Assembly: GCA_045805805.1 (NCBI GenBank) | Contig: JBJMKO010000144.1 | Coordinates: 629 to 64,628, forward strand | Length of the DNA: 64,000 bases | Reading direction: 5' to 3' | Source: Solirubrobacterales bacterium | Lineage (GTDB): Bacteria > Actinomycetota > Thermoleophilia > Solirubrobacterales > 70-9 | Shown here: piece by piece, positions 13,235 to 63,287 of the stretch | How positions within the stretch are numbered: position 1 is the first letter of the stretch | Layout: each line of letters starts with the position of its first letter | Made by a program: the position numbers and the translations under genes | Notes under the pieces: generated by a model | What the model was told of the DNA's origin: nothing | The model's database searches: none | Seen by the model: the letters and a program-made list of their open reading frames with translations, nothing else

Positions 13235-14164
13235 ATGGCTCGGCGCGGAAGGGCGACTGTCTTTGGTCCGCACCCGATGCTCTCGGTCACGGTCGAGGCG
13301 ATGACCGCAGACGGCGGTGACGACATCCACGTCCACGCCGCCGGACAGGGGGTCTGGGTGGCGCGGATGGCCGCCGAGCTGGGCGCCGACCCGGTCCTCT
13401 GCGGCTTCATCGGGGGCGAGACCGGGACCGTTCTGCGACCGCTGCTCGAGCAGATGGACGTGGAGCTGCGGTTGGTCGAGACGGCCGGGGCCAGCGGCTG
13501 CTACCTGCACGACCGCCGCTGCGGCGAGCGCAAGCCGATCGCCCAGAGCGCTGCCATGCCTCCGTCCCGTCACGAGATCGACGAGCTCTTCTCCGGCACC
13601 GTCGCCGCCGCACTCGATTCCGGGGTGCTGGCGCTCTGCGGTCCCTACCCGAGCGAGGCCCTTCCGCTGGAGATCTACGGCAACCTGGTCGGCGACGTGA
13701 AGGCGAATGGGACGCCGGTCGTGGTCGACCTCTCGCCCCCGCGACTTGACAGCGCCCTGGAGGGCGAGCCGGATCTGGTCAAGGTCAACGACTGGGAACT
13801 GGCCAAGTACGTCACCGGCCCGGTCGACACGGAGGAGCGGATGCGGGCCGCGGCGCAGCGGCTGCTGGACGCGGGCGCCGGCGCCGCGATCGTCACCCGC
13901 GCCGAGGAGCCGGCGATGGTCCTGCGCGGCGAGGAGGCGTGGATGCTGGTCCCGCCGCGCTTCGAGCGCGGCTCACGCGAGGGCTGCGGCGACTCGATGA
14001 TGGGCGCGCTCGCCGCCTGCATGGCCGCCGGCGTCGAGTGGGAGGAGATGCTGCGCACCGGCGCCGCGGCAGGCGCTGCCAACTTCCTCCGCCACGGCCT
14101 CGGCAGCGGCTCGCGGTCGGTGGTCGAGGACCTGGCGCAGCGGGTCGAGCTGCGCCCTCTCTGA
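13235..14164 (+). CDS. PfkB-family carbohydrate kinase (1-phosphofructokinase-like)
   Basis: 309 aa with ribokinase-fold layout and the C-terminal signature region EGCGDSMMGAL. Confidence 0.85.
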   Translation: MARRGRATVFGPHPMLSVTVEAMTADGGDDIHVHAAGQGVWVARMAAELGADPVLCGFIGGETGTVLRPLLEQMDVELRLVETAGASGCYLHDRRCGERKPIAQSAAMPPSRHEIDELFSGTVAAALDSGVLALCGPYPSEALPLEIYGNLVGDVKANGTPVVVDLSPPRLDSALEGEPDLVKVNDWELAKYVTGPVDTEERMRAAAQRLLDAGAGAAIVTRAEEPAMVLRGEEAWMLVPPRFERGSREGCGDSMMGALAACMAAGVEWEEMLRTGAAAGAANFLRHGLGSGSRSVVEDLAQRVELRPL

Positions 14165-14283
14165 GAGTCCACCCCGGCAGGGGTTCCGCTTAACTTTTTC
14201 GGTGGGGCGGGGATTTGCTTTGCGCTCGAAGGCGGCTGACGAAAAAGTACAAGACGCTCCACCCCTACCGGGGTGGACTCTCA
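14162..14283. repeat. family-1 nested-hairpin repeat, copy 1 (reverse orientation)
   Basis: Outer arms TGAGAGTCCACCCCGG (14162-14177) and CCGGGGTGGACTCTCA (14268-14283) are perfect. The core is GGGGTTCCGCTTAACTTTTTCG...CGAAAAAGTACAAGACGCTCCACCCC. Confidence 0.9.
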
Positions 14284-14999
14284 AACGGGACTGAGAGTTC
14301 TTGGCCGGTGACAATCGCTCTCGGGGCCACATCTCGCATCCACCCGAGGTGGGGCGCGACCGAATCGATCTCGGCGAGGGCCGTGAAGGCCTCGCGCATG
14401 TGGACCGGGCGGCCGCCGTGGGAAGAGTGGGCGTCGCTGCTCAGCACATGGACCAGGCCCGCTTCGGCCAGCGCTCGCATCCCGTCGGCGGTGCGCTCGC
14501 GCAGGAAGAAGTCAGCCGTCGCCTGCACCAGGGCGCCGGCGGCGACAAGCGCCCCGATCCGCTCGTACATGTCGGCCGAGAGGTGGCGCTCGGGGTGGGC
14601 GATCAAGGCCCGGTAGCCGCGTTCGGCGAGGTGGTCGACCCGCCGCGCCAGGCTGTCGCTCAGCGGCCCCGGTACCGGCTCCAGAAGGATCCAACGGCCG
14701 CTGCCCAGCGCAACCCGCCCGAGCTCCTCCTCGCCCAGCCCCTCGACCGCGGTCTCGGCCACCTCCCCACCCTGGAGGACAGTGACCGGGATGCCTTCCG
14801 CGCGCAGCCGCTCGTTCAGCCTCTCGACCCGACCGGCGATCTCCTCGATCCGCACATCGTGGTCGTGGCGGATGTGCGGGGTGGCGCAGATCGCCTCGAT
14901 CCCGTCGTTCACCGCCTGGCGGCCCATGCCGAGGCTGTCGCGGATATCGAGCGCGCCGTCGTCCAGCGCGGAAAGGATGTGGCAGTGCAGGTCGATCAA
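14265..14999 (-). CDS. CpsB/YwqE-type PHP-domain tyrosine-protein phosphatase
   Basis: 244 aa with the N-terminal MIDLHCHIL metal-binding motif and later ATPH and HPER motifs. The last 6 codons and the stop lie inside the right arm of repeat copy 1. Confidence 0.8.
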   Translation of the reverse strand: MIDLHCHILSALDDGALDIRDSLGMGRQAVNDGIEAICATPHIRHDHDVRIEEIAGRVERLNERLRAEGIPVTVLQGGEVAETAVEGLGEEELGRVALGSGRWILLEPVPGPLSDSLARRVDHLAERGYRALIAHPERHLSADMYERIGALVAAGALVQATADFFLRERTADGMRALAEAGLVHVLSSDAHSSHGGRPVHMREAFTALAEIDSVAPHLGWMRDVAPRAIVTGQELSVPFESPPR

Positions 15000-15110: not shown

Positions 15111-15578
15111 GTGGATAAGAAAACGACCCGCAGAGGGAACTACGAGTCTGGCTCCGATTACGTGCTCGAGTACGGGGAGCTCCGCTTTGCCTTCAACGAG
15201 GGGGACTTCGGCCAGCGCGTCGAGCAAGCGGCGGTGAAGCTCGGCTTCGTCGACCAGGGGCTCAGCCCCGAGGAGCTCGACGACCTGCTCGACCTCGCCG
15301 TCAGCGGCGAGATCGCCGAGCCCAGCTCGCGCCTGGGCGAGCACATCAACGAGAACTGGGAGGACCTGGTCGGGCCGGCCAACCGCAGCCTCGTCCACTG
15401 GCTTCGCCGCCTCGTCTTTCGCGGTGCCTGGCTCGATCAGCGGGTCAAGGAGGGTGAGCTGGACGTCGTCTTCGACGGGCGCACCCAGACCTTCGGATAC
15501 GTGCAGCCCGATCGCAGCTCTGACCTGATCGAGCTCAGTAAAGAGCCGAGCTGGCGGCGTATTGCCTATAGGCGGTAG
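15111..15578 (+). CDS. hypothetical protein
   Basis: 155-aa ORF with a GTG start, acidic, no recognised family. Composition is noticeably less GC-rich than its neighbours. Confidence 0.55.
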   Translation: MDKKTTRRGNYESGSDYVLEYGELRFAFNEGDFGQRVEQAAVKLGFVDQGLSPEELDDLLDLAVSGEIAEPSSRLGEHINENWEDLVGPANRSLVHWLRRLVFRGAWLDQRVKEGELDVVFDGRTQTFGYVQPDRSSDLIELSKEPSWRRIAYRR

Positions 15579-15580
15579 GG

Positions 15581-15693
15581 ACGAGGCGCGGGGCAGGGGT
15601 TCCGCTTAACTTTTTCGAGAAGCGGGGATTGCTGGCGCTCTAACCGCACTTGCGAAAAAGTACAAGACGCTCCACCCCTGCCCCGCGCCTCGT
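15581..15693. repeat. family-1 nested-hairpin repeat, copy 2 (reverse orientation)
   Basis: Perfect 20-bp arms ACGAGGCGCGGGGCAGGGGT (15581-15600) and ACCCCTGCCCCGCGCCTCGT (15674-15693), with the same core as copy 1. Confidence 0.9.
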
Positions 15694-15737
15694 TTCGGCG
15701 TTTGGCGCAAGCCGCTGTGCCTCAGCTTTGGGGGCTT

Positions 15738-18852: not shown

Positions 18853-20709
18853 CTACCAGCCGTTGCGGCGACCGAGCCACCACGGCGCGGCTATCGCGAG
18901 GGCGGTCGCGGCGAGGCCGATGCCTATGGGAATCCAGGGCGACGGGGCCGTGCCGGTCTCGGAGACCGGTTCCGACGCAAGGACGCCCGGCCGCGACCCG
19001 GCCGTCCCGGACCCGCCTTCGGGGGACTCGCCGCCGCCTTTTGCACCGGGCAGGGGGATCGTGCCCGTTCCGGGCGGCAGGGCCGCACCCGGTGGGCTTT
19101 CGGTCCCACCGTTGGCTTCCGGCAACAGTTCGGACGGCGCCGGAGAGCCCGATCCCACCCCCGCCGCAGTGCTGCCGCCCGTTGACGACGATCCCGTCGG
19201 CTTCTTCTCGCGTGGCGGTGGCGAGATCGGCAGCGCGTCGCCGGCGGCGGCTACCAACGCCTCGGCGGTCACCCAAACCGGGGTCTGGTCGCTGGAAGCC
19301 GAGTAGCGGAAGTGGCCGTTGCCTGCCTGCTGGGTGGTCAGGTAGTCGAGCGGGCTGTTGCCGCCCGACGCGATCTCGGAGGGATCGGCCCCTACAGCGA
19401 TCATCCCCTGGACGGCCCAGCCGGTCGATTGCGAGTTGACTCCACCCGAGCCACCCAGGGCGAAGCCGCCATTGGAGTGCTGGTGCTTGCGCAGGTAAGA
19501 GAGGCCGCGTTCGGCTGCCTTCGTGTCGGGCATCGCCTGCATCGCGGTGGCGGTGACGTCGGCGTTGCTTGGCTGCCCCGGCTCGTCGCCCCAGCCACCG
19601 TCGTCGTTCTGGACGTTGCCCAGCCAGGACAGCGTCTTTTCCAGCCCGCCGGTGGCGCCGGCGGTTCGGAGGGCGATCACGCTGTAGGAGGTCGTCCCGG
19701 GCCAGCCCTCGAAGGAGCCGTTCTTGGCACGACGCCCCTGCAGCTCGTCGACCAGGTCGCGGCCGGCGAACGAGCGCGGGTCTATGCCTGCCCCCTCGAG
19801 AGCGACGATCGTGCGGGCCAGGTCGCCGCTGCTGCTCATTTCGTCGATGTGCGAGCGCAGGAAGTCGATCGGCGTGGTGCCACCGCGGGAGACGTCGAGC
19901 GGGTTGCGACCCGCCGCCTCAAACCCCAACATCGCCCAGCCGGTGATCGCGGCGCCCGAGGGGTCGCCGGGAGAGGAGCCGAAGCCGCCGTCGGAGTTCT
20001 GCATCGATTCGAGCCAGTCGGCGGCGAGGCTGGGGCTGGCGGCACTGGCCGAGCCGGGGACGATCGCCGGCAGCAGCAGGGCCACGAGCACCGCTGTCGC
20101 CACTGCCGGGGTGCGCCACTCAAACCGCTCGCGGAAGCGGACCAGCATCCGCACCATCGCCGGCCCGGCCAGCAGGGCGAAGACGACGTTGCCGATCGCG
20201 TGGGCGAGGTTGAACGAAATCGCGCGGGCTTCCAGCGCGAGGAAGTGCTGGATCGAGAGGTCTCCACCGTAGGTAGCCATCAGCGAGAAGTTCAGCAGCA
20301 AACCGTAGGGGATAGCGGCGAATCCGCAAACCGCGGCGAGGGTGAGGCGGCTCGCGTTGCGGGCGCCGAGCGCCAGCGCCGCCCCCATCAAGCCACAGAG
20401 GCCCCATCCCGCCATCTGCCACGGCGTCCAGGGCCCCTGGCCGAACCAGAAGTTGGAGACGAGGCCCGCCAGCGCTCCTACCGCGAAGCCCGGCGCCGGC
20501 CCAAGCGCGTAGCCGGCGAAGACGACGATGTCGGTCGTCGGCTTGACGTTGGGAAAAGCAGCGAAGGCGATACGACCGGCGATCGCCAGGGCCGCGAGCG
20601 CCGCAACCAGCGCCACCACCTGCGACGGCGGCCGGGAGCGCTCGTACCAGGCGAAGCCACCGATAAGAACCGCGCCGAGGATCAGAAAGCTGGTCAGCTG
20701 CCAGGACAT
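18853..20709 (-). CDS. fusion protein: ECF-transporter S-component-like membrane domain + prenyltransferase/terpene-cyclase-like repeat domain + C-terminal TM anchor
   Basis: The N-terminal ~200 aa have about 6 TM helices. The middle carries five QW-like repeats (QNSDGGFG, AKNGSFEG, QNDDGGWG, QHSNGGFA, QAGNGHFR). A Gly/Pro/Ser-rich tail ends in a TM helix. The start overlaps the ecfA stop. Confidence 0.75.
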   Translation of the reverse strand: MSWQLTSFLILGAVLIGGFAWYERSRPPSQVVALVAALAALAIAGRIAFAAFPNVKPTTDIVVFAGYALGPAPGFAVGALAGLVSNFWFGQGPWTPWQMAGWGLCGLMGAALALGARNASRLTLAAVCGFAAIPYGLLLNFSLMATYGGDLSIQHFLALEARAISFNLAHAIGNVVFALLAGPAMVRMLVRFRERFEWRTPAVATAVLVALLLPAIVPGSASAASPSLAADWLESMQNSDGGFGSSPGDPSGAAITGWAMLGFEAAGRNPLDVSRGGTTPIDFLRSHIDEMSSSGDLARTIVALEGAGIDPRSFAGRDLVDELQGRRAKNGSFEGWPGTTSYSVIALRTAGATGGLEKTLSWLGNVQNDDGGWGDEPGQPSNADVTATAMQAMPDTKAAERGLSYLRKHQHSNGGFALGGSGGVNSQSTGWAVQGMIAVGADPSEIASGGNSPLDYLTTQQAGNGHFRYSASSDQTPVWVTAEALVAAAGDALPISPPPREKKPTGSSSTGGSTAAGVGSGSPAPSELLPEANGGTESPPGAALPPGTGTIPLPGAKGGGESPEGGSGTAGSRPGVLASEPVSETGTAPSPWIPIGIGLAATALAIAAPWWLGRRNGW

Positions 20710-22466
20710 CAGCCGTCCTCCGAGCGGTGAGTTCGTGTTTTTGCGTCCATATGGGCCCCAAAAGACGAACTCACCCGGGCTTGAAGAGCGGTGGCACCCT
20801 GCTCGGGGGTGATGACCCCCGGCAGGTCGAGGACGCGGGCCACCTCGGTGGCGAAGTACCAGCCGCCGGAGAGGATCTCGGTCGCCGGGCCGTCGGCGAT
20901 GACTACGCCGTCTCCGAGCAGGACGACGCGCTCGGCAAAGGTGGCGGCGAACTCGACGTCGTGGGTGGCGACGAGGAGACCGGCGCCGCGATCGGCGAGG
21001 TCGCCGATCAGCTCGACGAGGTCAGCCTTGCGGGCGCGGTCCATGCCGCGGGTCGGCTCATCGAGGGCGACGACTCCAGGGAGGCCTCCGCCGTCCATTC
21101 GCCCTGCCAGGGTTATCGTCAGCGCCAGCCGCTGCCGCTCACCTCCCGAGAGGTCACGCGGATCGGCGTCGATCGCGTGCTCCAAACCGACAAGCCGCAA
21201 GGCCGCAAGGCCGGCATCACTAGGAAGTTCGTCCCCGACGCGCTCCCGCACCAGGTAGTCGCTGGGGTTCTGTGTCAGCAGCGCGACACCAGCCGGCCCC
21301 TCGGCCTTGCCTCGGACTGGATCGATCAGTCCCGCAACGGTCTTCAAGAGTGTGCTCTTGCCTGCACCGTTGCGCCCCATGAGCGCAACCCGTTCACCCC
21401 GATGCACTTCCAGATCGATGCCCTTCAGGACATCGCGGTGCGCATCGCCCGAAGTGAGCTCGACCCAGAGGTCGGTTGACGTGAGGGTGGGATTTGAGGG
21501 GAGGCGGACCCCCTCCTCTCTCAACTTTTTCGGTGGGGCGGTGGTCTGTTTTCCTGGGCGGGTTGACGAAAAAGTACAAGCCGTTCGGAGGGGGTCCGCC
21601 TCCCCTCTATCGGCAGGCTCCGTTGACGTGAGAGTCCGGCGCGCGTCGCGGACCCCGACGGGCAGGGGTTCGATGCCGGCGAGAGAGAAGAGGCGCGCGG
21701 CGGGGGTCTCCAAAGCTTGGTCGGCCTCCTGCGCCCAGGTGAGGAAATCGCGGGGTCGGCCGTCGAAGGCGATCGAGCCGGAGTCCATCGCGATGACACG
21801 GTCGGCTGCGGCCAGGCAGCGCTCCAGTCGGTGCTCGGCCAACAGGATCGTTACCCCCCACTCCTCGTTTAGGCGGCGGAGGAGCCAGATCAGCTCGTCT
21901 CCCGCTACTGGGTCCAGCTGGGAGGTGGGCTCGTCGAGGAGGACCAGCTTCGGGCGGGTTACCAGGGCTGCGGCCAGGGCTACACGTTGGAGCTCCCCAC
22001 CCGAAAGGGTGTCCACGGCTCGGTTGAGCAGGTGGGGAATCGCCAGGGCGAGAGCCACCTCCTCCACCGCTCTCGCACGGGAGCTTGGTGAGTCTTCTCT
22101 CATCTCCAGGGGGAGCTCTATCTCGGCCGCGACCGTGGTCGAGACGACCTGGGTCTCCGGGTCTTGCGCCACGTAGCCGACTGCGGTGGCAAGCTCGCCC
22201 GGGCCGTTGGCTATCGCGTCGATGCCCGTCACCTCTACACGACCCTCGATCTCGCCGCCGTGGAAATGCGGGACGAGGCCGCAGGCGGCGCGGAGGAGAG
22301 TCGACTTGCCGCAGGCGGAGCGGCCGGCGAGGAGGACGAGCTCGCCCGGATCCAGGCGAAGTGAGACATCGCGGAGGGCCGGCTCGGAGGCGTTGGGATA
22401 GGCGTAGGTGAGGCCATCGACCGCCATGGCCGGGACGGCGCGCGTGGAGGTGGCGAGGTCAGGCAC
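20709..22466 (-). CDS. fused ECF transporter ATPase (EcfA-EcfA')
   Basis: Two ABC cassettes: Walker A GRSACGKST and GRNGAGKST, signatures LSGGELQR and LSGGERQR, Walker B LVLLDEPT and VVALDEPT. The GTG start at 22466 is preceded by GGGAGGAG. ATG 22427 is an alternative. Confidence 0.88.
   Translation of the reverse strand: MPDLATSTRAVPAMAVDGLTYAYPNASEPALRDVSLRLDPGELVLLAGRSACGKSTLLRAACGLVPHFHGGEIEGRVEVTGIDAIANGPGELATAVGYVAQDPETQVVSTTVAAEIELPLEMREDSPSSRARAVEEVALALAIPHLLNRAVDTLSGGELQRVALAAALVTRPKLVLLDEPTSQLDPVAGDELIWLLRRLNEEWGVTILLAEHRLERCLAAADRVIAMDSGSIAFDGRPRDFLTWAQEADQALETPAARLFSLAGIEPLPVGVRDARRTLTSTEPADRGEADPLRTACTFSSTRPGKQTTAPPKKLREEGVRLPSNPTLTSTDLWVELTSGDAHRDVLKGIDLEVHRGERVALMGRNGAGKSTLLKTVAGLIDPVRGKAEGPAGVALLTQNPSDYLVRERVGDELPSDAGLAALRLVGLEHAIDADPRDLSGGERQRLALTITLAGRMDGGGLPGVVALDEPTRGMDRARKADLVELIGDLADRGAGLLVATHDVEFAATFAERVVLLGDGVVIADGPATEILSGGWYFATEVARVLDLPGVITPEQGATALQARVSSSFGAHMDAKTRTHRSEDG
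20726..20775. repeat. family-2 palindromic repeat, copy B (inside the 3' end of the ATPase gene)
   Basis: GGTGAGTTCGT (20726-20736) and ACGAACTCACC (20765-20775) are perfectly complementary. The reverse complement matches copies A and C at both termini (TTCGTCTTTTGG...AAACACGAACTCA). Confidence 0.7.
21496..21607. repeat. family-1 nested-hairpin repeat, copy 3, in frame inside the ATPase gene linker
   Basis: Perfect 21-bp arms GAGGGGAGGCGGACCCCCTCC (21496-21516) and GGAGGGGGTCCGCCTCCCCTC (21587-21607). The core keeps AACTTTTTCGGTGGGGCGG...GACGAAAAAGTACAAG. It is flanked by GTTGACGTGAG at 21475-21485 and 21622-21632. Confidence 0.85.
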
Positions 22467-23445
22467 GGGAGGCTCCTCCCGCCTGCACCGTTTGGGCTCC
22501 CTGGGCGCCCGAACGGAGCACGCTTCGGGAGCGACGCCGGTTTCGGCGCAGCGGGGCAAGCCCGCTGAGGACGATTGCGGCCGAGACGGCGAGGACCGGC
22601 GGGCCGGTGCCGACCTCGACCGCCGGATATTCGGCGAACGCGTCGGCACCGAGGAGCTTGCCGGCAATCGCGATGGCGAGGACCGCGGAACCCGTCGCGT
22701 AGAGGCGGCGGTCGTAGCGAGAGCGCCGCGCGAAGGATTTTCGGCCCCGTAGGCCCGAAAGACCTTGCCGGGGCCGCCCCGGGGATCGCGGAGCCTCCAG
22801 GGCGTAACCGCGGAGCTCGAGCGTCGCGGCGACGTCGACCGCGCGGTCCAGCGAGCCGGCGAGAAGCCGCCGGGCCAGGGGGGCGCGTCCGACCGGGGCC
22901 GCGCCCGGGCCGCGCAGGCGGGCGGCGTCGCGCAAGCGGGCAGCGTCCGCCGCGGCCACCGGCACCAGCCGCGAGACCAGCGACGCCGTCAGGGCCGAAC
23001 GCCTGGCCAGCGGCCGCAGGGCGCGCAGGACGCGATCGGGGTCAACACAGGCCGAGTAGACGGCGAAGGCGACCATTACGACCGCGGCGCGCAGTCCGAG
23101 TACCGCGCCGGCGCCGATCGCCTCGGCCGTGACGTCGACCTGACCCAGCAGGGGCCACTTGCCGAGGCGGGCGAGCACCGTCTCCCCCCGGCTCACCACC
23201 AGGGCGTTGACGGCGACGATCAGCATGGCCAGCGTCAGCCCCATCCAGAGGGCGGCGCGGACCGCCGCGCGCGCGCCGGCGAGGCGGCCGGCCAAAACCA
23301 GGGCGCCGCCGGTCGAGGCCAGCACGATCGGGTTCGAGTAGAGAAAGGCGCAGGCGGTCAGAGCGCCCAGGTAGACGACCGCGGCGGCCGGCGAGGCCGC
23401 CTGCAGCGGACCCGACCTCGGGATGTAGGCGAACGGCGATCTCAT
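22459..23445 (-). CDS. ecfT: ECF transporter transmembrane component EcfT (CbiQ family)
   Basis: Begins MRSPFAYIPRSGPLQAASP at ATG 23445 (ATGA overlap with the upstream gene). Multi-TM CbiQ-like layout, positioned directly before the ATPase gene. Confidence 0.85.
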   Translation of the reverse strand: MRSPFAYIPRSGPLQAASPAAAVVYLGALTACAFLYSNPIVLASTGGALVLAGRLAGARAAVRAALWMGLTLAMLIVAVNALVVSRGETVLARLGKWPLLGQVDVTAEAIGAGAVLGLRAAVVMVAFAVYSACVDPDRVLRALRPLARRSALTASLVSRLVPVAAADAARLRDAARLRGPGAAPVGRAPLARRLLAGSLDRAVDVAATLELRGYALEAPRSPGRPRQGLSGLRGRKSFARRSRYDRRLYATGSAVLAIAIAGKLLGADAFAEYPAVEVGTGPPVLAVSAAIVLSGLAPLRRNRRRSRSVLRSGAQGAQTVQAGGASRA

Positions 23446-25111: not shown

Positions 25112-25139
25112 TTAAGCCACCCTTTCCTCGAGGGTTGTC

Positions 25140-25312
25140 ATGGCTGGCCGGGGACAGGTCTCCTGGCTCCCGGGGTTTGTCGGCCGCACCTTCCCGGGGA
25201 ATCGGTGTCCTCCCCAGTGGCCGGCGCCATAGCGCCTGCGGCTTCCTTGACCCGGTCACAGTGGCGGGACCGCGCCGGCTTCTCACCGGACTTCCCTTGA
25301 CCACCGACCGTA
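25140..25312 (-). promoter_or_regulatory. cobalamin (B12) riboswitch
   Basis: The reverse strand reads GGTCGGTGGTCAAGGGAAGTCCGGTGAGAAGCCGGCGCGGTCCCGCCACTGTGACC...GGCCACTGGGGAGG...CCCCGGGAAGGTGCGG...GAGCCAGGAGACCTGTCCCCGGCC. The conserved GGGAA/GGTG/CCCGCCACTG elements and the B12 box (AGCCAGGAGACCTG) are all present. It lies 30-200 nt upstream of the 25111 start. Confidence 0.85.
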
Positions 25313-25521
25313 TTTACGCGGGCGAGTCTATCCCGCTCCGGCGCCCCCGTGCGTCCGGCCCCCGAGACTCCCCAGCCAAGCTATCGGTCGGCGGGAATCG
25401 GGGGGCCAGGATGGCCGCCCGGATTCGGCCGACCGCTGAACGTTCGTCCAGCATTCTTTGCCTCCCCCCGGGCCGGGTCTAGGCTCGCCGCGGCAAGCCG
25501 GTCCTAGCAGAGGGGGAGAAG

Positions 25522-26220: not shown

Positions 26221-26244
26221 ACGCGCTTTTCGCGAGCCGCACAA

Positions 26245-26353
26245 GGCCGGCCCGGCAGGGGTGGAGCGTCTTGTACTTTTTCGCGAGCAACGCTTGAGCG
26301 CCAGCAATCCCGGCCTCTCGAAAAAGTTAAGCGGAACCCCTGCCGGGCCAGCC
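26245..26353. repeat. family-1 nested-hairpin repeat, copy 4 (forward orientation)
   Basis: Arms GGCCGGCCCGGCAGGGG (26245-26261) and CCCCTGCCGGGCCAGCC (26337-26353) pair at 16/17, with 13 consecutive perfect. Full core GGGGTGGAGCGTCTTGTACTTTTTCG...CGAAAAAGTTAAGCGGAACCCC. Confidence 0.9.
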
Positions 26354-26359
26354 TACGCT

Positions 26360-27121
26360 CTAGGTCTCAACCAACCCGCGCTCAAGCGCATAACGAACCA
26401 ACTCAGCCCGACTAGAAAGCCTCAGCTTCTGCTGAATATGAGCCCGATGGCTCTCCACAGTACGAATGCTTATATAGAGCTGCTCGGCAACCTCGGCATT
26501 CGTATGCCCAAGAGCAATCAACCGCAGAACATCCCGCTCGCGCTCGCTCAGCTCATCCGCCTGGCGCGCGTCGACCCCGGCGGCAAGACGGGCGCCGAGC
26601 GCCGGCTGAAGATAAGTGTCGCCTGCGGCCGCGCGGCGAACGGCCTGCACCAACTCGGCGTCCGCGGCCTCCTTCAGCACGTAGCCACGCACCCCCGTCT
26701 GCAGGGCGCGGCGAGCGAAGGCGGGCTCGTTCTGCATCGTCAAGACGACGATCTCGGTCTCGGGCGAGGCCTCCTGGATCTCCGGCACGGCGTCGAGGCT
26801 GGAGCGGCCGGGCATGTTGAGGTCGAGGATCAGCACCGTCGGCTTGTGCCCGCGGACATAGCGGACCGCGGTATCGGCGTCACCGGCCTCGGCGACGACC
26901 TCGAAGCCGGCCTCGGCGTCGAGCAGCATGCGCAGGGCGTTGCGCATCACGGTGTGATCGTCGGCGAGGACGATCGTGATCGCGGCCGCGTCATCCGCGA
27001 CGCTTAGAGCGGATTCGGGGCTCACTGCGACGAGGTTAGCGGCACCAACGGAGCCGTGGCTCATGCTCATGGAGCTATCTAAGCGCCCCCTGAGGCTTGC
27101 GCCATCGGGGTTTTCCCGCAT
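26360..27121 (-). CDS. NarL/FixJ (LuxR)-family response regulator
   Basis: Receiver domain (IVLADDH..., LILDLNMPG) plus a LuxR HTH (LSERERDVLRLIALGHTNAEVAEQLYISIRTVESH). The start may instead be an internal ATG (27070 or 27064). Confidence 0.88.
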   Translation of the reverse strand: MRENPDGASLRGRLDSSMSMSHGSVGAANLVAVSPESALSVADDAAAITIVLADDHTVMRNALRMLLDAEAGFEVVAEAGDADTAVRYVRGHKPTVLILDLNMPGRSSLDAVPEIQEASPETEIVVLTMQNEPAFARRALQTGVRGYVLKEAADAELVQAVRRAAAGDTYLQPALGARLAAGVDARQADELSERERDVLRLIALGHTNAEVAEQLYISIRTVESHRAHIQQKLRLSSRAELVRYALERGLVET

Positions 27122-48685: not shown

Positions 48686-50661
48686 GCACCGGGACCCCCG
48701 AGAAGCTCTGGGAACCCTCCGCGGAGCTGGTCGAGCGCTCGCGCCTGCGCGAGTACATGCGCTGGCTCGAAGCCGAGCGCGGGCTGAAGCTCGATGACTA
48801 TGAGGCCCTGTGGCGCTGGTCGGTGTCCGACCTCGACGGCTTCTGGTCCTCGATCTGGGACTTCTTCGGCGTCCAGGCCGACGGCGGCTACGAGCGGGTG
48901 CTCGGCAGCCGCGAGATGCCCGGCGCGGAGTGGTTCGCCGGCACCAGCCTCAACTACACCGAGCACGTCTTCGCCGGTAAGGAGGACGGCACCGAGGCGG
49001 CGATCCTGCACGCCTCGGAGCTGCGCGAGCTCGGCGAGCTGAGCTGGGGCGAGCTGCGTGCCCAGGTGGCCGCGACCGCGGCCGGGCTGCGCGCGCTCGG
49101 GGTCGAGCGCGGCGACCGCGTCGTCGCTTACATGCCCAACATCCCCGAGGCGATCGTCGCCTTCCTCGCCACCGCGAGCATCGGCGCGGTCTGGTCGAGT
49201 TGCTCGCCCGACTTCGGCCCGGCGAGCGTGATCGACCGCTTCGCCCAGATCGAGCCCAAGGTGCTCTTCGCGGTCGACGGCTACCGCTATGGCGGCAAGG
49301 ACTTCGACCGGCGCGAGACGCTTGCCCAGCTGCAGGCGGCGATACCAAGCCTGGTGCGCACGGTCGTCCTCCCCTACCTCGACGCCGAGCCAGATCTCAC
49401 CGGGCTGCGCGACGCGATGCGCTGGGAGGAGCTGCTCGTCGACGGCGAAGGAGCCGACCTGACATTCGAGCGCGTCCCCTTTGACCACCCGCTCTGGGTG
49501 CTCTACTCCTCCGGGACGACTGGCCTGCCGAAGGCGATCGTGCAGTCGCAGGGCGGCATCCTGCTCGAGCACCTGAAGAAGCTCCACCTCCACGTCGACG
49601 CCCATCCCGGCGACCGCCTCTTCTGGTTCACCACGACGGGCTGGATGATGTGGAACTTCCTCGTCTCCGGCCTGCTGACCCGGGCCGCGATCGTCCTCTA
49701 CGACGGCAATCCCGGCCACCCGGGCATGGGCGTGCTCTGGGACCTCGCCGAGCGCGCCGGGGTGACGATGTTCGGCACCAGCGCCTCCTACATCGCCGCC
49801 TGCATGAAGGCGGGCGCCGAGCTCGGGGGCGGCCGCGACCTCAGCCGCCTGAAAGCGGTCGGATCGACCGGCTCCCCCCTCTCCCCCGAGGGCTTCGACT
49901 GGATCTACGAGCACCTCGGTGCCGACACCTGGCTCTTCTCCACCAGCGGCGGAACCGACCTCTGCACCGCTTTTGTCGGCGGCGTCGCCCTATTGCCGGT
50001 CTACCGCGGCGAGCTGCAGGGACGCGCCCTCGGCGCCGCGGTCGAGGCCTGGGACGAGGACGGCAACTCGGTGATCGACGAGGTCGGCGAGCTGGTCGTC
50101 ACCGAGCCGATGCCCTCGATGCCCATCCGCTTCTGGGGGGACGACGACGGCAGTCGTTACCGGGCGAGCTACTTCGAGCACTACCCCGGCGTCTGGCGCC
50201 ACGGCGATTGGATCGAAATCACTTCGCGCGACACCGCCGTCATCTACGGCCGCTCGGACTCGACGATCAACCGCTCGGGCATCCGCATGGGAACGAGCGA
50301 GATCTACCGCGCCGTGCTCGGCCTGAACGAGATCATCGACGCGCTCGTCGTCGACGTCCCCCGCCCGGGAACAGAGGGCTGGATGCCGCTCTTCGTCGTC
50401 CTCCGCGAGGGCGCCGAGCTCAACGACGACCTGCGCAAGGAGATAGCCCGCCGCGTCCGCAGCCAGTGCTCCCCCCGCCACGTCCCCGACGAGGTCTTCC
50501 AGATCACTGAAGTCCCACGCACCCTCAGCGGCAAGGTCCTTGAGGTGCCAGTCAAGCGAATCCTGACGGGCACACCACCGGAGCAGGCCGCAAGCCGCGA
50601 CTCGCTTACCAACCCAGCCTCCCTCGACTACTTCGTCGACCTGGCCGCCTCGCTCGACTAG
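48682..50661 (+). CDS. acetoacetate-CoA ligase (acetoacetyl-CoA synthetase)
   Basis: GTG 48682 overlaps the MBL gene stop (GTGA). LWEPSAELVERSRLREYMRWLE is a typical acetoacetyl-CoA synthetase N-terminus. AMP-binding motif YSSGTTGLPKAI. Confidence 0.9.
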   Translation: MSTGTPEKLWEPSAELVERSRLREYMRWLEAERGLKLDDYEALWRWSVSDLDGFWSSIWDFFGVQADGGYERVLGSREMPGAEWFAGTSLNYTEHVFAGKEDGTEAAILHASELRELGELSWGELRAQVAATAAGLRALGVERGDRVVAYMPNIPEAIVAFLATASIGAVWSSCSPDFGPASVIDRFAQIEPKVLFAVDGYRYGGKDFDRRETLAQLQAAIPSLVRTVVLPYLDAEPDLTGLRDAMRWEELLVDGEGADLTFERVPFDHPLWVLYSSGTTGLPKAIVQSQGGILLEHLKKLHLHVDAHPGDRLFWFTTTGWMMWNFLVSGLLTRAAIVLYDGNPGHPGMGVLWDLAERAGVTMFGTSASYIAACMKAGAELGGGRDLSRLKAVGSTGSPLSPEGFDWIYEHLGADTWLFSTSGGTDLCTAFVGGVALLPVYRGELQGRALGAAVEAWDEDGNSVIDEVGELVVTEPMPSMPIRFWGDDDGSRYRASYFEHYPGVWRHGDWIEITSRDTAVIYGRSDSTINRSGIRMGTSEIYRAVLGLNEIIDALVVDVPRPGTEGWMPLFVVLREGAELNDDLRKEIARRVRSQCSPRHVPDEVFQITEVPRTLSGKVLEVPVKRILTGTPPEQAASRDSLTNPASLDYFVDLAASLD

Positions 50662-50775
50662 AGCCCATCCCGGTAGGGGTGGAGCGTCTTGTACTTTTTC
50701 GCGAGCGCGGTTCGAGCGCCAGCAATCCCCGCTCCTCGAAAAAGTTAAGCGGAACCCCTACCGGGATGGGCTCTA
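50659..50775. repeat. family-1 nested-hairpin repeat, copy 5 (forward orientation)
   Basis: Perfect 22-bp arms TAGAGCCCATCCCGGTAGGGGT (50659-50680) and ACCCCTACCGGGATGGGCTCTA (50754-50775), with the full core. Both flanking stop codons lie in the arm tips. Confidence 0.92.
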
Positions 50776-52293
50776 CGCCGGAGTAACCGGATTACGCCGC
50801 TCGGCGAACGCCCGGCCCTTGCTCGCCGCCATCGCGAAGCGCTTGATCAGGTCATCGCGCAGGTCGGTTGGCTCGACGACCGCGTCGACGACCAGCTCCG
50901 AGGCGAGGTGGAGGATGTCGATGTCCTCGGCGTATTCCTCGCGCTTGGCGGCGACGAACGCCTCGCGCTCAGCCTCGTCCTCAATTGCCTGGATCTGGTT
51001 GTAGAAGACGGCATTGATCGCCGCCTGTGGACCCATCACCGCGATCGAGGCGCTGGGCAGGGCGATGCAGCAGTCCGGCTCGAAAGCAGGACCGGCCATC
51101 GCGTAGAGGCCGGCGCCGTAGGCCTTGCGGACGACCACCGAGATCTTCGGCACGGTCGCTTCGGAGACGGCGCTGATCATCTTCGCCCCGTGGCGGATGA
51201 TCCCCTGGCGCTCGACCGCGGTGCCGATCATGAAGCCCGGCACGTCGGCGAGGAAAAGCAAGGGGACATTGAAGGCATTGCAGGTCTGGATGAAGCGGGC
51301 CGCCTTGTCGGCGGAGTCGACGAAGAGGACGCCGCCGGTGTGCTTGGGCTGGTTGGCGACGATTCCGATCGCGCGCCCGTCGAGGCGTCCGTAGCCGACG
51401 ATCAGCTCCTTCGCCCAGCGCTTGTGGACCGCCAGGAAGCTGTCGGCGTCCAGCAACGAGTCGAGTAGCTGCTGCATGTCGAAGGGTTGGTTCTCGTCGG
51501 AAGGCAGGATCTCGGCGATCGAAGTGTCCGATGCCGGCTCGGCGACCGGCGCGGCGGGTGGTTCCTCTCGCCAGTTGCCCGGCATGAAGGAGAGGTAGCG
51601 CTTGGCCAGGTCGATCGCCTCCTCGTCGGACTTGACGAGGAAATGGCCGCAGCCGGAGACGCCGGTGTGCATCTTGGCCCCGCCCATCTCCTCCAGGCTG
51701 ACCTTCTCGCCGATCACCATCTCGGCCATCCGCGGCGACCCCAGGTACATCGAGGCGTTGCCGTCGCGCATGATCACCGCGTCGCAGAAAGCCGGGATGT
51801 AGGCGCCGCCGGCTGCGCTGGGGCCGAAGAGCAGGCAGACCTGCGGCACCTGGCCGGAAAGCCGCACCTCGTTGTGGAAGATCCGCCCGGCGCCACGGCG
51901 CCCGGGAAACATCTGCACCTGGTCGGTGATCCGCGCCCCGGCCGAGTCGACCAGGTACAGGATTGGGATCCGCAGGGAGAGCGCCCGTTCCTGGATGCGA
52001 AGGATCTTCTCGACGGTCTTCGGGCCCCATGAGCCGGCCTTGACGGTCGGATCGTTGGCCATCAGAGCGGCGCGGCGGCCATCGATCCTCGCCAGGCCGG
52101 TTACGACGCCATCGGCCCCCAGTCCCTCCTCGTCCCAGTTCGCCAGTGCCGCCTCCTCGGCGAAGGAGCCGGGGTCGACGAGCCGCGCGACCCGCTCGCG
52201 CACCGGCAGCTTGCCCTGCTCCGCGGTCTTCTCGTGATGGCGCTGCGGGCCCCCCGCGAGAGCCGCCTTGAGCGCCTTCTGGAAGTCGGACAT
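50773..52293 (-). CDS. acyl-CoA carboxylase carboxyltransferase (beta) subunit, methylcrotonyl-/propionyl-CoA type
   Basis: 506 aa with tandem crotonase-like carboxyltransferase domains (ANDPTVKAGSWGP, GPSAAGGAYIPA, VRKAYGAGLYAM). Confidence 0.9.
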   Translation of the reverse strand: MSDFQKALKAALAGGPQRHHEKTAEQGKLPVRERVARLVDPGSFAEEAALANWDEEGLGADGVVTGLARIDGRRAALMANDPTVKAGSWGPKTVEKILRIQERALSLRIPILYLVDSAGARITDQVQMFPGRRGAGRIFHNEVRLSGQVPQVCLLFGPSAAGGAYIPAFCDAVIMRDGNASMYLGSPRMAEMVIGEKVSLEEMGGAKMHTGVSGCGHFLVKSDEEAIDLAKRYLSFMPGNWREEPPAAPVAEPASDTSIAEILPSDENQPFDMQQLLDSLLDADSFLAVHKRWAKELIVGYGRLDGRAIGIVANQPKHTGGVLFVDSADKAARFIQTCNAFNVPLLFLADVPGFMIGTAVERQGIIRHGAKMISAVSEATVPKISVVVRKAYGAGLYAMAGPAFEPDCCIALPSASIAVMGPQAAINAVFYNQIQAIEDEAEREAFVAAKREEYAEDIDILHLASELVVDAVVEPTDLRDDLIKRFAMAASKGRAFAERRNPVTPA

Positions 52294-57287: not shown

Positions 57288-58102
57288 GCGAGCTGCGGGT
57301 TTTCGCGGTCGACGGCCTGCCGGAGATCGAGACCGGGACGAACCTCGGCGAGCTGATCGCGTCGCGGGCGGAGCTTCTCAACGGGGACGTCGTGGTGGTC
57401 TCTCAGAAGGTCGTCTCCAAGGCAGAGGGACGGGTGCGGCGACTCTCCACGGTAGTCCCCGGCGCCGAGGCTCACCGTCTCGCCGCCGAGCTTGGCAAGG
57501 AGCCGGCCATGGTCGAGCTGACCCTGGAAGAGAGCCGCGAGGTGCTGCGAGCCGAGCGTGGCGTCCTGATCACCGAGACCTACCACGGCTTCGTCTGCGC
57601 CAACGCCGGCATCGACAGCTCCAACCTCCCTGAGGCAGACACCGTCTGCCTGCTCCCCGAGGACCCCGACGCCTCGGCCCGCAATCTAAGAGTCGAAATC
57701 GCCTCCGCAGTGACGAAGGAGCATGGGGTGGGACTCGCCGGACACCCAGCGCGAAGCGCGTCCGCCGAGTCCCACCCCATGCTCCCCCCAACCCTCGCGG
57801 TAGTGATCGGCGACAGCTTCGGCCGCGCTTGGCGCCTCGGCCAAACCGAGGCAGCAATCGGCTGCGCCGGCCTGACCCCGCTGGACGACTGGCGCGGCCG
57901 AAGCGACTCGCACGGGCGCAAGCTGGAAGCCACGATGATCGCCATCGCCGACGAGGCCGCCGCAGCCGCCGACCTCGTCCGCGGCAAGGACAGCCGCGTC
58001 CCGGTCGCGATCGTCCGCGGCTTGGACCGCTTTATCACTGTCGACGACGGCCCCGGCGCAATAGCGCTACGCAGACCTCGAGACGAAGACCTCTTCCGCT
58101 GA
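57284..58102 (+). CDS. cofE: coenzyme F420-0:L-glutamate ligase (single-domain CofE type)
   Basis: 272 aa with VVVVSQKVVSKAEGR, CANAGIDSSN and IGDSFGRAWRLG. There is no C-terminal nitroreductase-like domain. Confidence 0.88.
   Translation: MSELRVFAVDGLPEIETGTNLGELIASRAELLNGDVVVVSQKVVSKAEGRVRRLSTVVPGAEAHRLAAELGKEPAMVELTLEESREVLRAERGVLITETYHGFVCANAGIDSSNLPEADTVCLLPEDPDASARNLRVEIASAVTKEHGVGLAGHPARSASAESHPMLPPTLAVVIGDSFGRAWRLGQTEAAIGCAGLTPLDDWRGRSDSHGRKLEATMIAIADEAAAAADLVRGKDSRVPVAIVRGLDRFITVDDGPGAIALRRPRDEDLFR
57718..57785. repeat. perfect 20-bp inverted repeat (28-nt spacer) inside the cofE coding sequence
   Basis: GGAGCATGGGGTGGGACTCG (57718-57737) pairs with CGAGTCCCACCCCATGCTCC (57766-57785). 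The spacer adds a further CGGAC/GTCCG stem. Translated as KEHGVGLAGHPARSASAESHPMLP. Confidence 0.9.
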
Positions 58103-58104
58103 GA

Positions 58105-58220
58105 CCGGAACCATCCCGGTAGGGGTGGAGCGTCTTGTACTTTTTCGCGGCGCGGTTCGGGCGCCGGCAATCCCCGCTCCTCGAAAAAGTTAAGCGGAAC
58201 CCCTGCCGGGATGGTCCCGG
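58105..58220. repeat. family-1 nested-hairpin repeat, copy 6 (forward orientation)
   Basis: Arms CCGGAACCATCCCGGTAGGGG (58105-58125) and CCCCTGCCGGGATGGTCCCGG (58200-58220) pair at 19/21, with the full core. It starts 3 nt after the cofE stop. Confidence 0.9.
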
Positions 58221-58233
58221 CCCCCGCATCGGA

Positions 58234-63171: not shown

Positions 63172-63287
63172 GGGGCTGGGGTGGCCTCGCCTGCGCGCTG
63201 GGTTTTTCGCCGCAGCGTTGCTTGCGCTCGTTGAGGGGATAGGGCGAAAAACAAGACGCCGCGCGCAGGCGAGGCCACCCCAGCCCC
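63172..63287. repeat. family-1 nested-hairpin repeat, copy 7 (diverged core, reverse orientation)
   Basis: Perfect 27-bp arms GGGGCTGGGGTGGCCTCGCCTGCGCGC (63172-63198) and GCGCGCAGGCGAGGCCACCCCAGCCCC (63261-63287). The core retains TTTTTCG...TTGCTTGCGCTCG...CGAAAAACAAGACGC. Confidence 0.8.

What the first reader, a model, noticed from the sequence alone, without database searches (positions are those of the whole stretch)
21475..21632. Family-1 repeat inserted in frame in the linker of the fused ECF ATPase gene, flanked by an 11-bp direct duplication
Copy 3 (arms 21496-21516 and 21587-21607) lies inside the 20709-22466 CDS, between the first ABC cassette (...VGVRDARRTL) and the second (DLWVELTSGD...). 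The frame reads straight through it as TSTEPADRGEADPLRTACTFSSTRPGKQTTAPPKKLREEGVRLPSNPTL, with no stop. GTTGACGTGAG occurs at 21475-21485 and again at 21622-21632. The spacing is 147 nt, or 49 codons. Deleting one repeat plus the intervening DNA would therefore give ...RRTLTSTDLWVEL... in frame. This is the only copy with a visible target-site-duplication-like repeat, and it is the best evidence here that the family is, or was, mobile. In-frame palindromic insertions into ORFs are established for Rickettsia palindromic elements. I know of no equivalent description for a high-GC actinobacterial lineage.
Basis: partly seen in the sequence, partly recalled or inferred. Interest (0 to 1): 0.8.

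Follow-up and report, generated by a model that had tools for sequence, protein, structure and literature searches.

The report
Ancient flipping hairpin repeat inside transporter gene
A 123-base hairpin repeat that normally sits between genes has been carried in frame inside a vitamin-B12 transporter ATPase gene since an early ancestor of an uncultured soil-bacterial clade, where it is kept as DNA rather than as protein; the "insertion scar" that made it look recently mobile is not real.

Summary
There is a perfect 21-nt inverted repeat, an open frame through it and an exact 11-mer on both sides, 147 nt apart. It is a true copy of a dispersed ~123-nt hairpin family (7 copies in the window, at least 117 hits in Solirubrobacterales/Thermoleophilia MAGs). 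It lies in the predicted disordered linker of a fused ECF ATPase in a cobalamin-riboswitch operon.

The insertion is old: all 80 metagenome orthologues (72-88% identity) read through a homologous linker, and about 66 of 78 keep a stem of at least 17 bp. Outgroups at 59% identity or less lack it. The 11-mer is unique to this lineage, lies 10 and 14 nt from the arms in fast-evolving linker DNA, and flanking repeats are not enriched in the family. Filled and empty intergenic sites show insertion without duplication.

The element is translated in at least five frame and orientation combinations. Its 70-nt core has repeatedly inverted between unchanged arms. The arms covary and diverge far more slowly than neighbouring linker codons or four-fold sites. 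The constraint is therefore on the nucleic acid, and the peptide is a passenger. Its function is unknown.

The parts
20709..22466 (-). Fused ECF-type ATPase gene (EcfA1-EcfA2, 585 aa) that hosts the element
   Evidence: ORF. Identical to P0001 from a Solirubrobacterales MAG. Two ABC_tran domains. CbiQ/EcfT gene directly upstream.
21491..21612 (-). Family hairpin element (subfamily II). The sense ('Q') orientation is the mRNA strand. It is translated as part of the inter-domain linker (the 49-residue block is residues 280-328).
   Evidence: Covariance model R1 scores 92.5 bits, E = 5.9e-18. Fold. AlphaFold pLDDT 22-33 and no secondary structure at 281-325.
21496..21516 (.). Left arm of the 21-bp perfect stem (GAGGGGAGGCGGACCCCCTCC)
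   Evidence: Homologous arms with compensated changes in orthologues.
21587..21607 (.). Right arm of the stem
21517..21586 (.). 70-nt core between the arms. It holds the conserved boxes ACTTTTTCG (21524-21532) and CGAAAAAGT (21567-21575), which form an inner 9-bp stem, plus a variable apical region. This segment is inverted in 16 of 44 orthologues.
21475..21485 (+). Direct-repeat copy 1 (GTTGACGTGAG), 10 nt outside the left arm. Not a target-site duplication.
21622..21632 (+). Direct-repeat copy 2, 14 nt outside the right arm
14160..14285 (-). Family copy 1, between convergent genes and overlapping both stop codons. Absent at the orthologous site in L201.
15576..15698 (-). Family copy 2, between convergent genes. 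Absent in L201 and L202, which have a 13-nt spacer.
26238..26360 (+). Family copy 4, directly after a TAG stop. Present in L202, absent in L201 and L203.
50656..50778 (+). Family copy 5, between convergent genes
58102..58223 (+). Family copy 6, at a gene's 3' end
63172..63287 (-). Seventh, diverged family copy
   Evidence: 52.9 bits, E = 2.2e-9.
25136..25320 (-). Cobalamin riboswitch heading the operon that contains the ATPase (context)
   Evidence: 74.3 bits, gathering score 31.5.

Best explanation
This is an old, fixed, in-frame resident copy of a dispersed ~123-nt hairpin repeat family specific to uncultured Solirubrobacterales/Thermoleophilia. The family's usual home is the 3' ends of genes, often between convergent genes.

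Shown:
- One copy entered the linker-coding DNA of an already fused ECF ATPase gene at the base of a clade.
- It has since been translated as a disordered spacer between the two ATPase domains.
- It is kept at the nucleotide level: a 17-25 bp, mostly perfect stem and the conserved boxes persist.
- The peptide is read in at least five different frame and orientation combinations.
- The 70-nt core has repeatedly inverted in place between unchanged arms.
- The core has several times been deleted, leaving a bare hairpin.
- Twice the whole linker was lost together with fission of the gene into two genes.

Inferred:
- Arm-to-arm copying, by template switching in replication or recombination between the arms, produces both the inversions and the multi-base compensated changes.
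- Purifying constraint on the hairpin, or on a DNA-level site in it, slows its divergence.
- The need to keep translating into the second ATPase domain, with a spacer of at least about 30 residues, prevents simple loss.

The 11-bp direct repeat is a lineage-specific coincidence or local event, not a transposition scar. The family inserts without a detectable target duplication.
For: Family membership: R1 hit of 92.5 bits, with shared boxes and architecture.

Family distribution: at least 117 stretches, almost all in Solirubrobacterales/Thermoleophilia MAGs. 91 of 124 copies abut a stop codon and 30 lie between convergent genes. Only the ATPase copies are convincingly inside an ORF.

Age: 119 of the top 120 protein orthologues carry the full-length linker, and P0110 has a partial deletion. 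All 80 metagenome loci read through it. Outgroups at 59% identity or less have unrelated linkers. The tree places a single origin at the base of the clade.

Nucleotide-level rather than peptide-level conservation:
- Frames used are Q-a 17, Q-b 12, P-a 6, P-b 4, P-c about 6.
- 96.1% of cells are paired against 81.5% in shuffles; 27 of 31 pairs show compensatory changes; the covariation score is 0.398 against 0.115 for shuffles and 0.04-0.10 for slid controls.
- Arms diverge by 0.24, adjacent linker codons by 0.61-0.65, and four-fold sites by 0.41-0.56.

In-place inversion: L121 and L130 have identical arms, and their 70-nt loops are 93% identical as reverse complements but 56% identical directly. 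For the window versus L120 the figures are 87% and 56%. There are 28 sense and 16 antisense copies, interspersed on the tree.

Core deletion: the short linkers keep homologous arms and a remnant of the right box.

Loss with gene fission: L198 and L200.

Disorder.

No target-site duplication.

Mechanistic precedent: template switching can repair stems and invert loops (PMC8794818).
Against: - No orthologue inside the clade shows an intact fused gene with a clean empty site. The insertion event and its exact boundaries are therefore inferred from distant outgroups whose linkers cannot be aligned.
- The slow divergence of arms and boxes points to selection, but no function, binding protein or mobilising enzyme was identified.
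- The rate comparison uses the subset detected by the model, which favours conserved boxes.
- The exact 11-mer remains improbable by chance (about 1e-3) and has no positive explanation.
- G·U versus A·C mismatches on the mRNA strand are 19 to 13, so RNA-level selection is neither shown nor excluded.
- All data come from MAGs and metagenome assemblies. Mis-oriented loops are unlikely, because every flipped copy is open and in frame, whereas a simple flip of the window copy would create a TGA stop.
Confidence: 0.72

Rival explanations
1. One reading: a fairly recent transposition of a MITE-like element into the linker, with the 11-bp GTTGACGTGAG as its target-site duplication. Precise excision would restore ...RRTLTSTDLWVEL.
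For: An exact 11-mer, 15 of 17 matches over 17 nt, in phase at 147 nt = 49 codons. The chance expectation is about 1e-3. Intergenic family copies are present or absent among close relatives, so the family can move.
Against: The linker element is shared by all 80 orthologue loci and the top 120 proteins. None of the 77 other orthologue linkers examined has the repeat, including the 88%-identical L137. The repeat lies 10 and 14 nt outside the arms, in DNA that is saturated with substitutions. Flanking repeats are not enriched in 124 copies. Filled and empty sites show no duplication. No orthologue has a linker shorter than 31 aa.
Confidence: 0.04
2. The hairpin is a selected cis-acting RNA signal inside the operon mRNA. 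It could be a ribosome or RNA-polymerase pause that separates folding of the two ATPase halves, an RNase processing or stabilising site, or an attenuator of the downstream S-component gene. It would have been recruited from a repeat.
For: The copy is fixed across the clade while intergenic copies come and go. The stem is retained even after the core is lost. Arms diverge far more slowly than the surrounding linker and four-fold sites. The fold is very stable in the mRNA sense (-71.8 kcal/mol, z = -6.25).
Against: The core is conserved in both orientations relative to the mRNA (28 to 16). There is no clear excess of G·U over A·C on the mRNA strand (19 to 13). About 12 of 78 orthologues have lost the long stem, and two lineages have lost the whole linker. 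A stable 3' end inside an ORF would yield non-stop messages. There is no U-tract after the stem and no promoter.
Confidence: 0.15
3. A purely passive relic. The element has no function here. The perfect stem is kept only by mutational arm-to-arm template switching, and the copy persists because in-frame deletion of exactly the right DNA is rare.
For: Exact loop inversions prove that arm-to-arm events happen at this site. Mismatch types are roughly strand-symmetric. Deletion derivatives and losses exist. The published mechanism repairs stems without selection (PMC8794818).
Against: Conversion alone should not lower the substitution rate. Yet arms (0.24) and boxes (0.05-0.18) diverge much more slowly than adjacent linker codons (0.61-0.65) and four-fold sites (0.41-0.56). 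Box sequence is conserved although it is not needed for pairing.
Confidence: 0.2
4. The linker hairpin is the ancestral or master copy, and the intergenic family derives from this gene. Alternatively, the linker is an ancestral protein feature that merely resembles the repeat.
For: The ATPase copy is the oldest demonstrably orthologous copy. Its subfamily (CTCAAC...GTTGAG, C-run/G-run inner arms) also has intergenic members.
Against: Fused ECF ATPases outside the clade have unrelated linkers. The peptide is not conserved, with five reading frames in use. Most family copies belong to a different subfamily and sit at gene ends.
Confidence: 0.04

Closest known systems
Rickettsia palindromic elements (RPEs)
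   Same: A palindromic repeat of about 100-150 bp is found in frame inside a protein-coding gene. It is translated without destroying the protein and lies in a surface or disordered segment (review PMC10969869; AlphaFold).
   Different: RPEs are inserted in frame in dozens of unrelated genes and encode a conserved peptide. Here only one gene carries the element (4 of 124 copies, all the same ATPase). The peptide is read in at least five frames and orientations. Most copies are intergenic at gene 3' ends. The lineage is high-GC Actinomycetota, not Rickettsiales.
REP/BIME elements, and RIP/ERIC/Correia-type composite palindromes
   Same: High-copy extragenic hairpins at the 3' ends of genes and between convergent genes. 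They are composite: two inverted arms around a conserved A/T-rich centre, as in BIMEs or Correia elements with a central IHF site (my own knowledge). They insert without an obvious duplication.
   Different: The unit is about 123 nt, not 20-40 nt. A GTAG tag is present in fewer than half the copies and lies inside the stem. The outer arms differ between copies. No RAYT or IHF link has been tested. Correia elements have conserved terminal repeats and a TA duplication, which are absent here.
SPRITE and other terminator-like repeat families
   Same: A dispersed repeat that looks like a transcription-terminator hairpin placed just after stop codons (abbreviation list of PMC10969869; context).
   Different: There is no U-tract after the stem. 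Instead a T-run precedes and an A-run follows the apical region. The element is much longer and has a conserved internal core.
Template-switch maintained hairpins and minute loop inversions (plastid hairpins, RNA-gene stems)
   Same: Perfect stems, multi-base compensated changes and exact inversion of the loop with its length preserved (PMC8794818; observed).
   Different: Here the hairpin lies inside a translated bacterial ORF. Each inversion changes the encoded peptide while keeping the frame. The process has recurred many times across a clade.

Membership tests
Window 'family-1' hairpin repeat (Solirubrobacterales ~123-nt element) | Conserved boxes CTTGTACTTTTTCG ... CGAAAAAGTT[AG]AG that form an inner 9-bp stem | tested here: met
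   boxes at 21524-21532 and 21567-21575.
Window 'family-1' hairpin repeat (Solirubrobacterales ~123-nt element) | Outer stem of about 20 bp with copy-specific sequence; full-length match to the covariance model | tested here: met
   92.5 bits over model positions 1-123; outer stem is about 93% Watson-Crick, and 21 pairs show compensatory changes.
MITE | Terminal inverted repeats conserved between copies | tested here: not met
   the outermost 8-10 bp of the arms differ between copies. Only the inner arm is conserved.
MITE | Target-site duplication flanking each copy | tested here: not met
   the longest shared flank word in 124 copies matches the null; filled versus empty sites show no duplication.
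MITE | A related autonomous insertion sequence with the same ends | not tested
   No transposase search was possible on whole genomes. There are no matches in the plasmid or phage collections.
RPE-like in-frame palindromic element | Inserted in frame without a stop and translated | tested here: met
   the frame is open in the window and in all 80 orthologue loci. Translation itself has not been shown experimentally.
RPE-like in-frame palindromic element | In-frame insertions in many unrelated genes | tested here: not met
   only the ATPase among 124 copies. This census used an exact-pattern set, so diverged intragenic copies could be missed.
RPE-like in-frame palindromic element | Conserved encoded peptide | tested here: not met
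   at least five frame and orientation combinations among orthologues.
REP/BIME | A 20-40 nt palindromic unit tagged by GTAG or CGTC at one end | tested here: not met
   the unit is about 123 nt. GTAG is at columns 18-21 inside the stem, and column 19 is T in under half of the copies.
REP/BIME | Association with a RAYT (TnpA-REP) gene | not testable with these tools
   Only 8-kb stretches of each genome were held.
Intrinsic (Rho-independent) terminator | A G+C-rich stem followed directly by a U-tract | tested here: not met
   no T-run follows the outer stem on either strand. The only terminator-like hit is a local fold of one arm on the antisense strand.
Any Rfam RNA family | Score at or above the gathering threshold | tested here: not met
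   only sub-threshold microRNA-hairpin chance matches.
Fused ECF-transporter ATPase (EcfA1-EcfA2) | Two ABC_tran nucleotide-binding domains in one polypeptide, next to an EcfT/CbiQ gene | tested here: met
   ABC_tran in 2 stretches, and CbiQ in the upstream gene. Source names.

The most novel reading that the evidence does not exclude
The hairpin is a selected nucleic-acid element that works at the DNA level, or from either strand. It could be a binding or structural site for a nucleoid protein, gyrase or a recombinase. It has been preserved inside a coding sequence for the whole history of a large bacterial clade. The protein sequence is a freely changing passenger, and recurrent loop inversion keeps the arms matched. 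This would be a long-lived 'dual-use' stretch in which the genome element, not the protein, is under selection.
Probability: 0.3. Interest if true: 0.75.

Novelty: new variant of a known kind. Interest (0 to 1): 0.55.

Why it matters
In-frame palindromic repeats are known mainly from Rickettsia and are usually read as tolerated accidents. Here about 80 orthologues show what happens to such an insertion over a long time. The open frame and the DNA hairpin are both kept. The amino-acid sequence is not kept, and the core flips repeatedly between unchanged arms.

This gives a natural data set for three uses:
- separating selection on nucleic-acid structure from selection on protein;
- measuring template-switch or arm-to-arm correction in bacteria;
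- defining a new abundant repeat family in an uncultured, globally common soil lineage.

It is also a caution: a striking flanking direct repeat can be unrelated to transposition.

Tried and rejected
- Rfam at gathering and at E-value thresholds found nothing real.
- The promoter scan of the gene found none. The terminator scan found only a local fold of one arm on the antisense strand.
- The plasmid and phage collections had no match.
- A test for target-site duplication in 124 family copies and 78 orthologues was negative.
- I asked whether the short 99-nt linkers are 'empty hairpin' target sites into which the core was inserted. I rejected this because their arms are homologous to the full element's arms, their loop keeps a remnant of the right box, and they are scattered within core-bearing clades.
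- I asked whether the split genes L198 and L200 are ancestral empty sites. I rejected this because they are nested inside hairpin-bearing clades.
- A census for other in-frame copies found only the ATPase. Four other candidates had the GC1 of about 0.93 typical of antisense frames.
- Strand asymmetry of G·U versus A·C is weak overall (74 to 47 in the family, 19 to 13 in the gene). It is strong at one column only.
- Element orientation against local GC skew gave 68 to 43, p = 0.02. This is too weak and is confounded by gene orientation.
- The paired inverted copies in L009, L018 and L066 enclose nothing informative.
- The idea of an in-frame G-AAA-AAG slippery site was not pursued, because it is absent in the other frames.
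- A second rate control that included non-homologous arm types was too noisy to use.
Full report
**1. The observation**

The gene is on the minus strand (20709-22466). It is identical to a 585-aa protein from a Solirubrobacterales MAG. Pfam finds two ABC_tran domains. The upstream genes are CbiQ/EcfT and two DUF4430 proteins. The downstream gene combines an ECF S-component-like region with a prenyltransferase-type toroid. A cobalamin riboswitch (25136-25320, minus strand) heads the operon.

The 21-nt arms (21496-21516 and 21587-21607) are perfectly complementary and 70 nt apart. GTTGACGTGAG occurs only at 21475-21485 and 21622-21632. The frame is open through the block. The segment folds far better than shuffles, with z = -6.25 as RNA and -5.81 as DNA.

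**2. The repeat family**

The window holds six strong copies and one diverged copy. Nearly all hits are in uncultured Solirubrobacterales or Thermoleophilia MAGs with chromosomes of about 2.5-3 Mb.

I aligned 124 copies (A1). The architecture is as follows:
- An outer stem of about 20 bp that is about 93% Watson-Crick. Its outer half differs from copy to copy, and 21 pairs show compensatory changes.
- An internal loop.
- An invariant A/T-rich 9-bp inner stem (ACTTTTTCG/CGAAAAAGT). It is invariant partly because of the search pattern.
- A variable apical region of about 35 nt.

No Rfam family matches.

Of the 124 copies, 91 have a coding-like ORF ending within a few bases of the hairpin foot, and 30 lie between convergent genes. 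There is no orientation preference relative to the neighbouring gene. Only the ATPase copies are convincingly inside an ORF.

The window copy scores 92.5 bits with the family model. It belongs to a subfamily (CTCAAC...GTTGAG, C-run/G-run inner arms) that also has intergenic members.

**3. Age of the ATPase copy**

All of the 120 best protein matches (79-91% identity) carry a homologous linker, and one of them has a partial deletion. All 80 metagenome loci encoding orthologues at 72-88% identity read through the linker without a stop. Model R1 finds the element in the linker of 45 of the orthologue loci searched.

Fused ECF ATPases at 59% identity or less have unrelated linkers of about 20-45 residues. 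A neighbour-joining tree of the two ATPase domains places a single origin at the base of the clade. The insertion is therefore real but ancient.

**4. What is conserved**

The peptide is not conserved. Orthologues translate the element in at least five frame and orientation combinations...DPLRTACTFS..PPKKLREEGV......TPSERLVLF......SSLNFFGG..EKVQAVRRG......LTQLFPKEG..KSTSRSE..., and ...PLSTCSGG..EVQAVRRG....

The nucleic acid is conserved.
- About 66 of 78 linkers have a stem of at least 17 bp, and 46 of those stems are perfect.
- On the model-based alignment of the ATPase copies, 96.1% of cells pair, against 81.5% in shuffles.
- 27 of 31 pairs show compensatory changes.
- The covariation score is 0.398, against 0.115 for shuffles (0 of 500 reach it) and 0.04-0.10 for slid controls. 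That alignment is fitted to the structure, which favours it somewhat.
- The arms differ by 0.24 on average between orthologues. The 18 nt of linker immediately outside the hairpin differ by 0.61-0.65. Four-fold degenerate sites of the flanking domains differ by 0.41-0.56, and the boxes by 0.05-0.18. This last comparison uses the model-positive subset, which favours conserved boxes.

**5. In-place rearrangement**

Sense (28) and antisense (16) copies are interspersed on the tree. In sister-like pairs the arms are unchanged and the 70-nt core is an exact reverse complement. L121 and L130 are 93% identical as reverse complements but 56% identical directly, with both loops 70 nt. The window and L120 are 87% versus 56%. 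Because length is preserved, the downstream frame survives each flip. The frame classes pair up as flip products, Q-a with P-b and Q-b with P-a, as read.

Assembly error is an unlikely cause. Every flipped copy is open, whereas a simple flip of the window copy would create an in-frame TGA.

The 99-nt 'short' linkers keep homologous arms (GGGATGGGAGTCGATCGCCCTCCT against GAGGGGAGTCGGACCCCCTCC) and a remnant of the right box. They are scattered on the tree, so they are core deletions. Two lineages have lost the whole linker, and in both the gene is split into two genes that overlap by ATGA or by 17 nt. AlphaFold predicts no structure for residues 281-325, with pLDDT 22-33.

**6. The 11-bp repeat**

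The evidence against a target-site duplication is as follows:
- The repeat lies 10 and 14 nt outside the arms.
- It is absent from all 77 other orthologue linkers examined, including L137 at 88% identity, where the two sites match at 10 of 15 positions.
- The longest shared flank word in 124 family copies follows the null distribution, and the window copy is the only outlier.
- The repeat sits in the part of the linker that is saturated with change, so a duplication made at the ancient insertion could not have survived intact.

Direct filled-versus-empty comparisons are available for intergenic copies. Window copies 1 and 2 are absent from relatives at 86-88% ATPase identity. Copy 4 is present in one relative and absent in two. 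In each case the extra DNA includes both arms. For copy 4 it starts immediately after the TAG stop codon. No duplication is visible.

These polymorphic sites, not the 11-mer, show that the family has moved or been excised recently. The 11-mer is best regarded as chance (about 1e-3 for one locus) or a local event in this lineage.

**7. Mechanism**

Shown: the copy is an ancient, fixed, translated member of a dispersed hairpin family. The constraint is on nucleotides and on the open frame. Loop inversions and internal deletions recur.

Inferred:
- Arm-to-arm template switching or recombination produces the inversions and the multi-base compensated changes. Both are documented outcomes of template-switch mutation (PMC8794818).
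- Purifying constraint on the hairpin and boxes slows their divergence.
- The fused protein's need for a spacer explains why loss is seen only together with gene fission.

Core conservation does not depend on orientation relative to transcription, either in the gene or at intergenic sites. Mismatch types are nearly strand-symmetric: 19 G·U to 13 A·C in the gene, and 74 to 47 in the family, driven by one column with 22 to 0. I therefore favour a role at the DNA level or from either strand over an mRNA-sense signal. This is unproven.

**8. Comparison with known elements and verdict**

The closest analogues are Rickettsia palindromic elements for in-frame tolerance (PMC10969869) and REP/BIME or terminator-like repeats for location and shape. 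The element fails the defining tests of a MITE (no conserved termini, no duplication), of RPEs (one gene only, no conserved peptide), of REPs (size, tag) and of intrinsic terminators (no U-tract). I found no paper on palindromic repeats in Solirubrobacterales.

It is a new variant of a known kind. The 'target-site duplication and recent mobility' reading is wrong. The long-term, orientation-flipping, nucleotide-level persistence of the element inside a coding region is the interesting result.

Noticed in passing
window 25136-25320 (-), with genes 24353-25111, 23442-24356, 22459-23571, 20709-22466 and 18853-20709 (all -): A cobalamin riboswitch heads an operon of two DUF4430 proteins, CbiQ/EcfT, the fused ATPase, and a 618-aa protein that joins an ECF S-component-like membrane region to a prenyltransferase/squalene-cyclase-type toroid. 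This is probably a B12 uptake system with an unusual last gene.
   Followed up: partly
window 63172-63287 (-): A seventh, diverged copy of the hairpin family (52.9 bits) lies just after the ORF 62207-63163. The sequence-similarity search missed it.
   Followed up: partly
window 14160-14285 and flanking genes 13235-14164 (+) and 14265-14999 (-); compare L201 17980-18150: The arms of intergenic copy 1 supply the stop codon and last codons of both convergent neighbours. One neighbour is 244 aa here but 219 aa in a relative that lacks the element, so insertions remodel the C-termini of proteins.
   Followed up: partly
alignment A1 (124 copies); hairpin feet: TAG is over-represented among stop codons touching the hairpin foot: 43 TAG, 27 TGA and 4 TAA, against 36%, 55% and 10% in the same loci. 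This could reflect a target preference or a palindromic CTAG foot.
   Followed up: partly
alignment A1, columns 26-28 with 103-105, and column 19 with 112: There is a symmetric purine-rich internal loop (GGA/GGA) with some G·G to A·A co-variation. In some subfamily-II copies a fully Watson-Crick CCCCGC/GCGGGG replaces it. Column 19/112 has 22 G·U and 0 A·C, the only strongly strand-asymmetric position.
   Followed up: no
L198 3340-3420; L200 3360-3400: In two lineages the ATPase is split into separate NBD1 (294-295 aa) and NBD2 (241-244 aa) genes with overlapping stop and start codons and no hairpin. The covalent fusion is therefore dispensable.
   Followed up: yes
L009 4573-5061; L018 7235-7700; L066 4151-4662: Pairs of family copies in inverted orientation lie about 400 nt apart. 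Several orthologous loci share a TTGACG...GATAGCG-type flank upstream of a chlorite-dismutase/HemQ-like gene. Some copies therefore sit in 5' regions rather than at 3' ends.
   Followed up: partly
window 21567-21575 (mRNA sense ...CCG AAA AAG TTG...): In the most common reading frame the right box places G-AAA-AAG in frame. This resembles the dnaX-type slippery sequence. It is absent in the other frames used by orthologues.
   Followed up: no
L069 (JBLMYD010000083.1): One exact family hit lies in a MAG labelled Chloroflexota. This could be a binning error or a rare occurrence outside Thermoleophilia.
   Followed up: no
L001-L117 (8-kb loci): The element's 'P' strand tends to be the G-rich strand of its locus (68 against 43, p = 0.02). 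This is a weak hint of an orientation bias relative to replication and would need whole chromosomes to test.
   Followed up: partly
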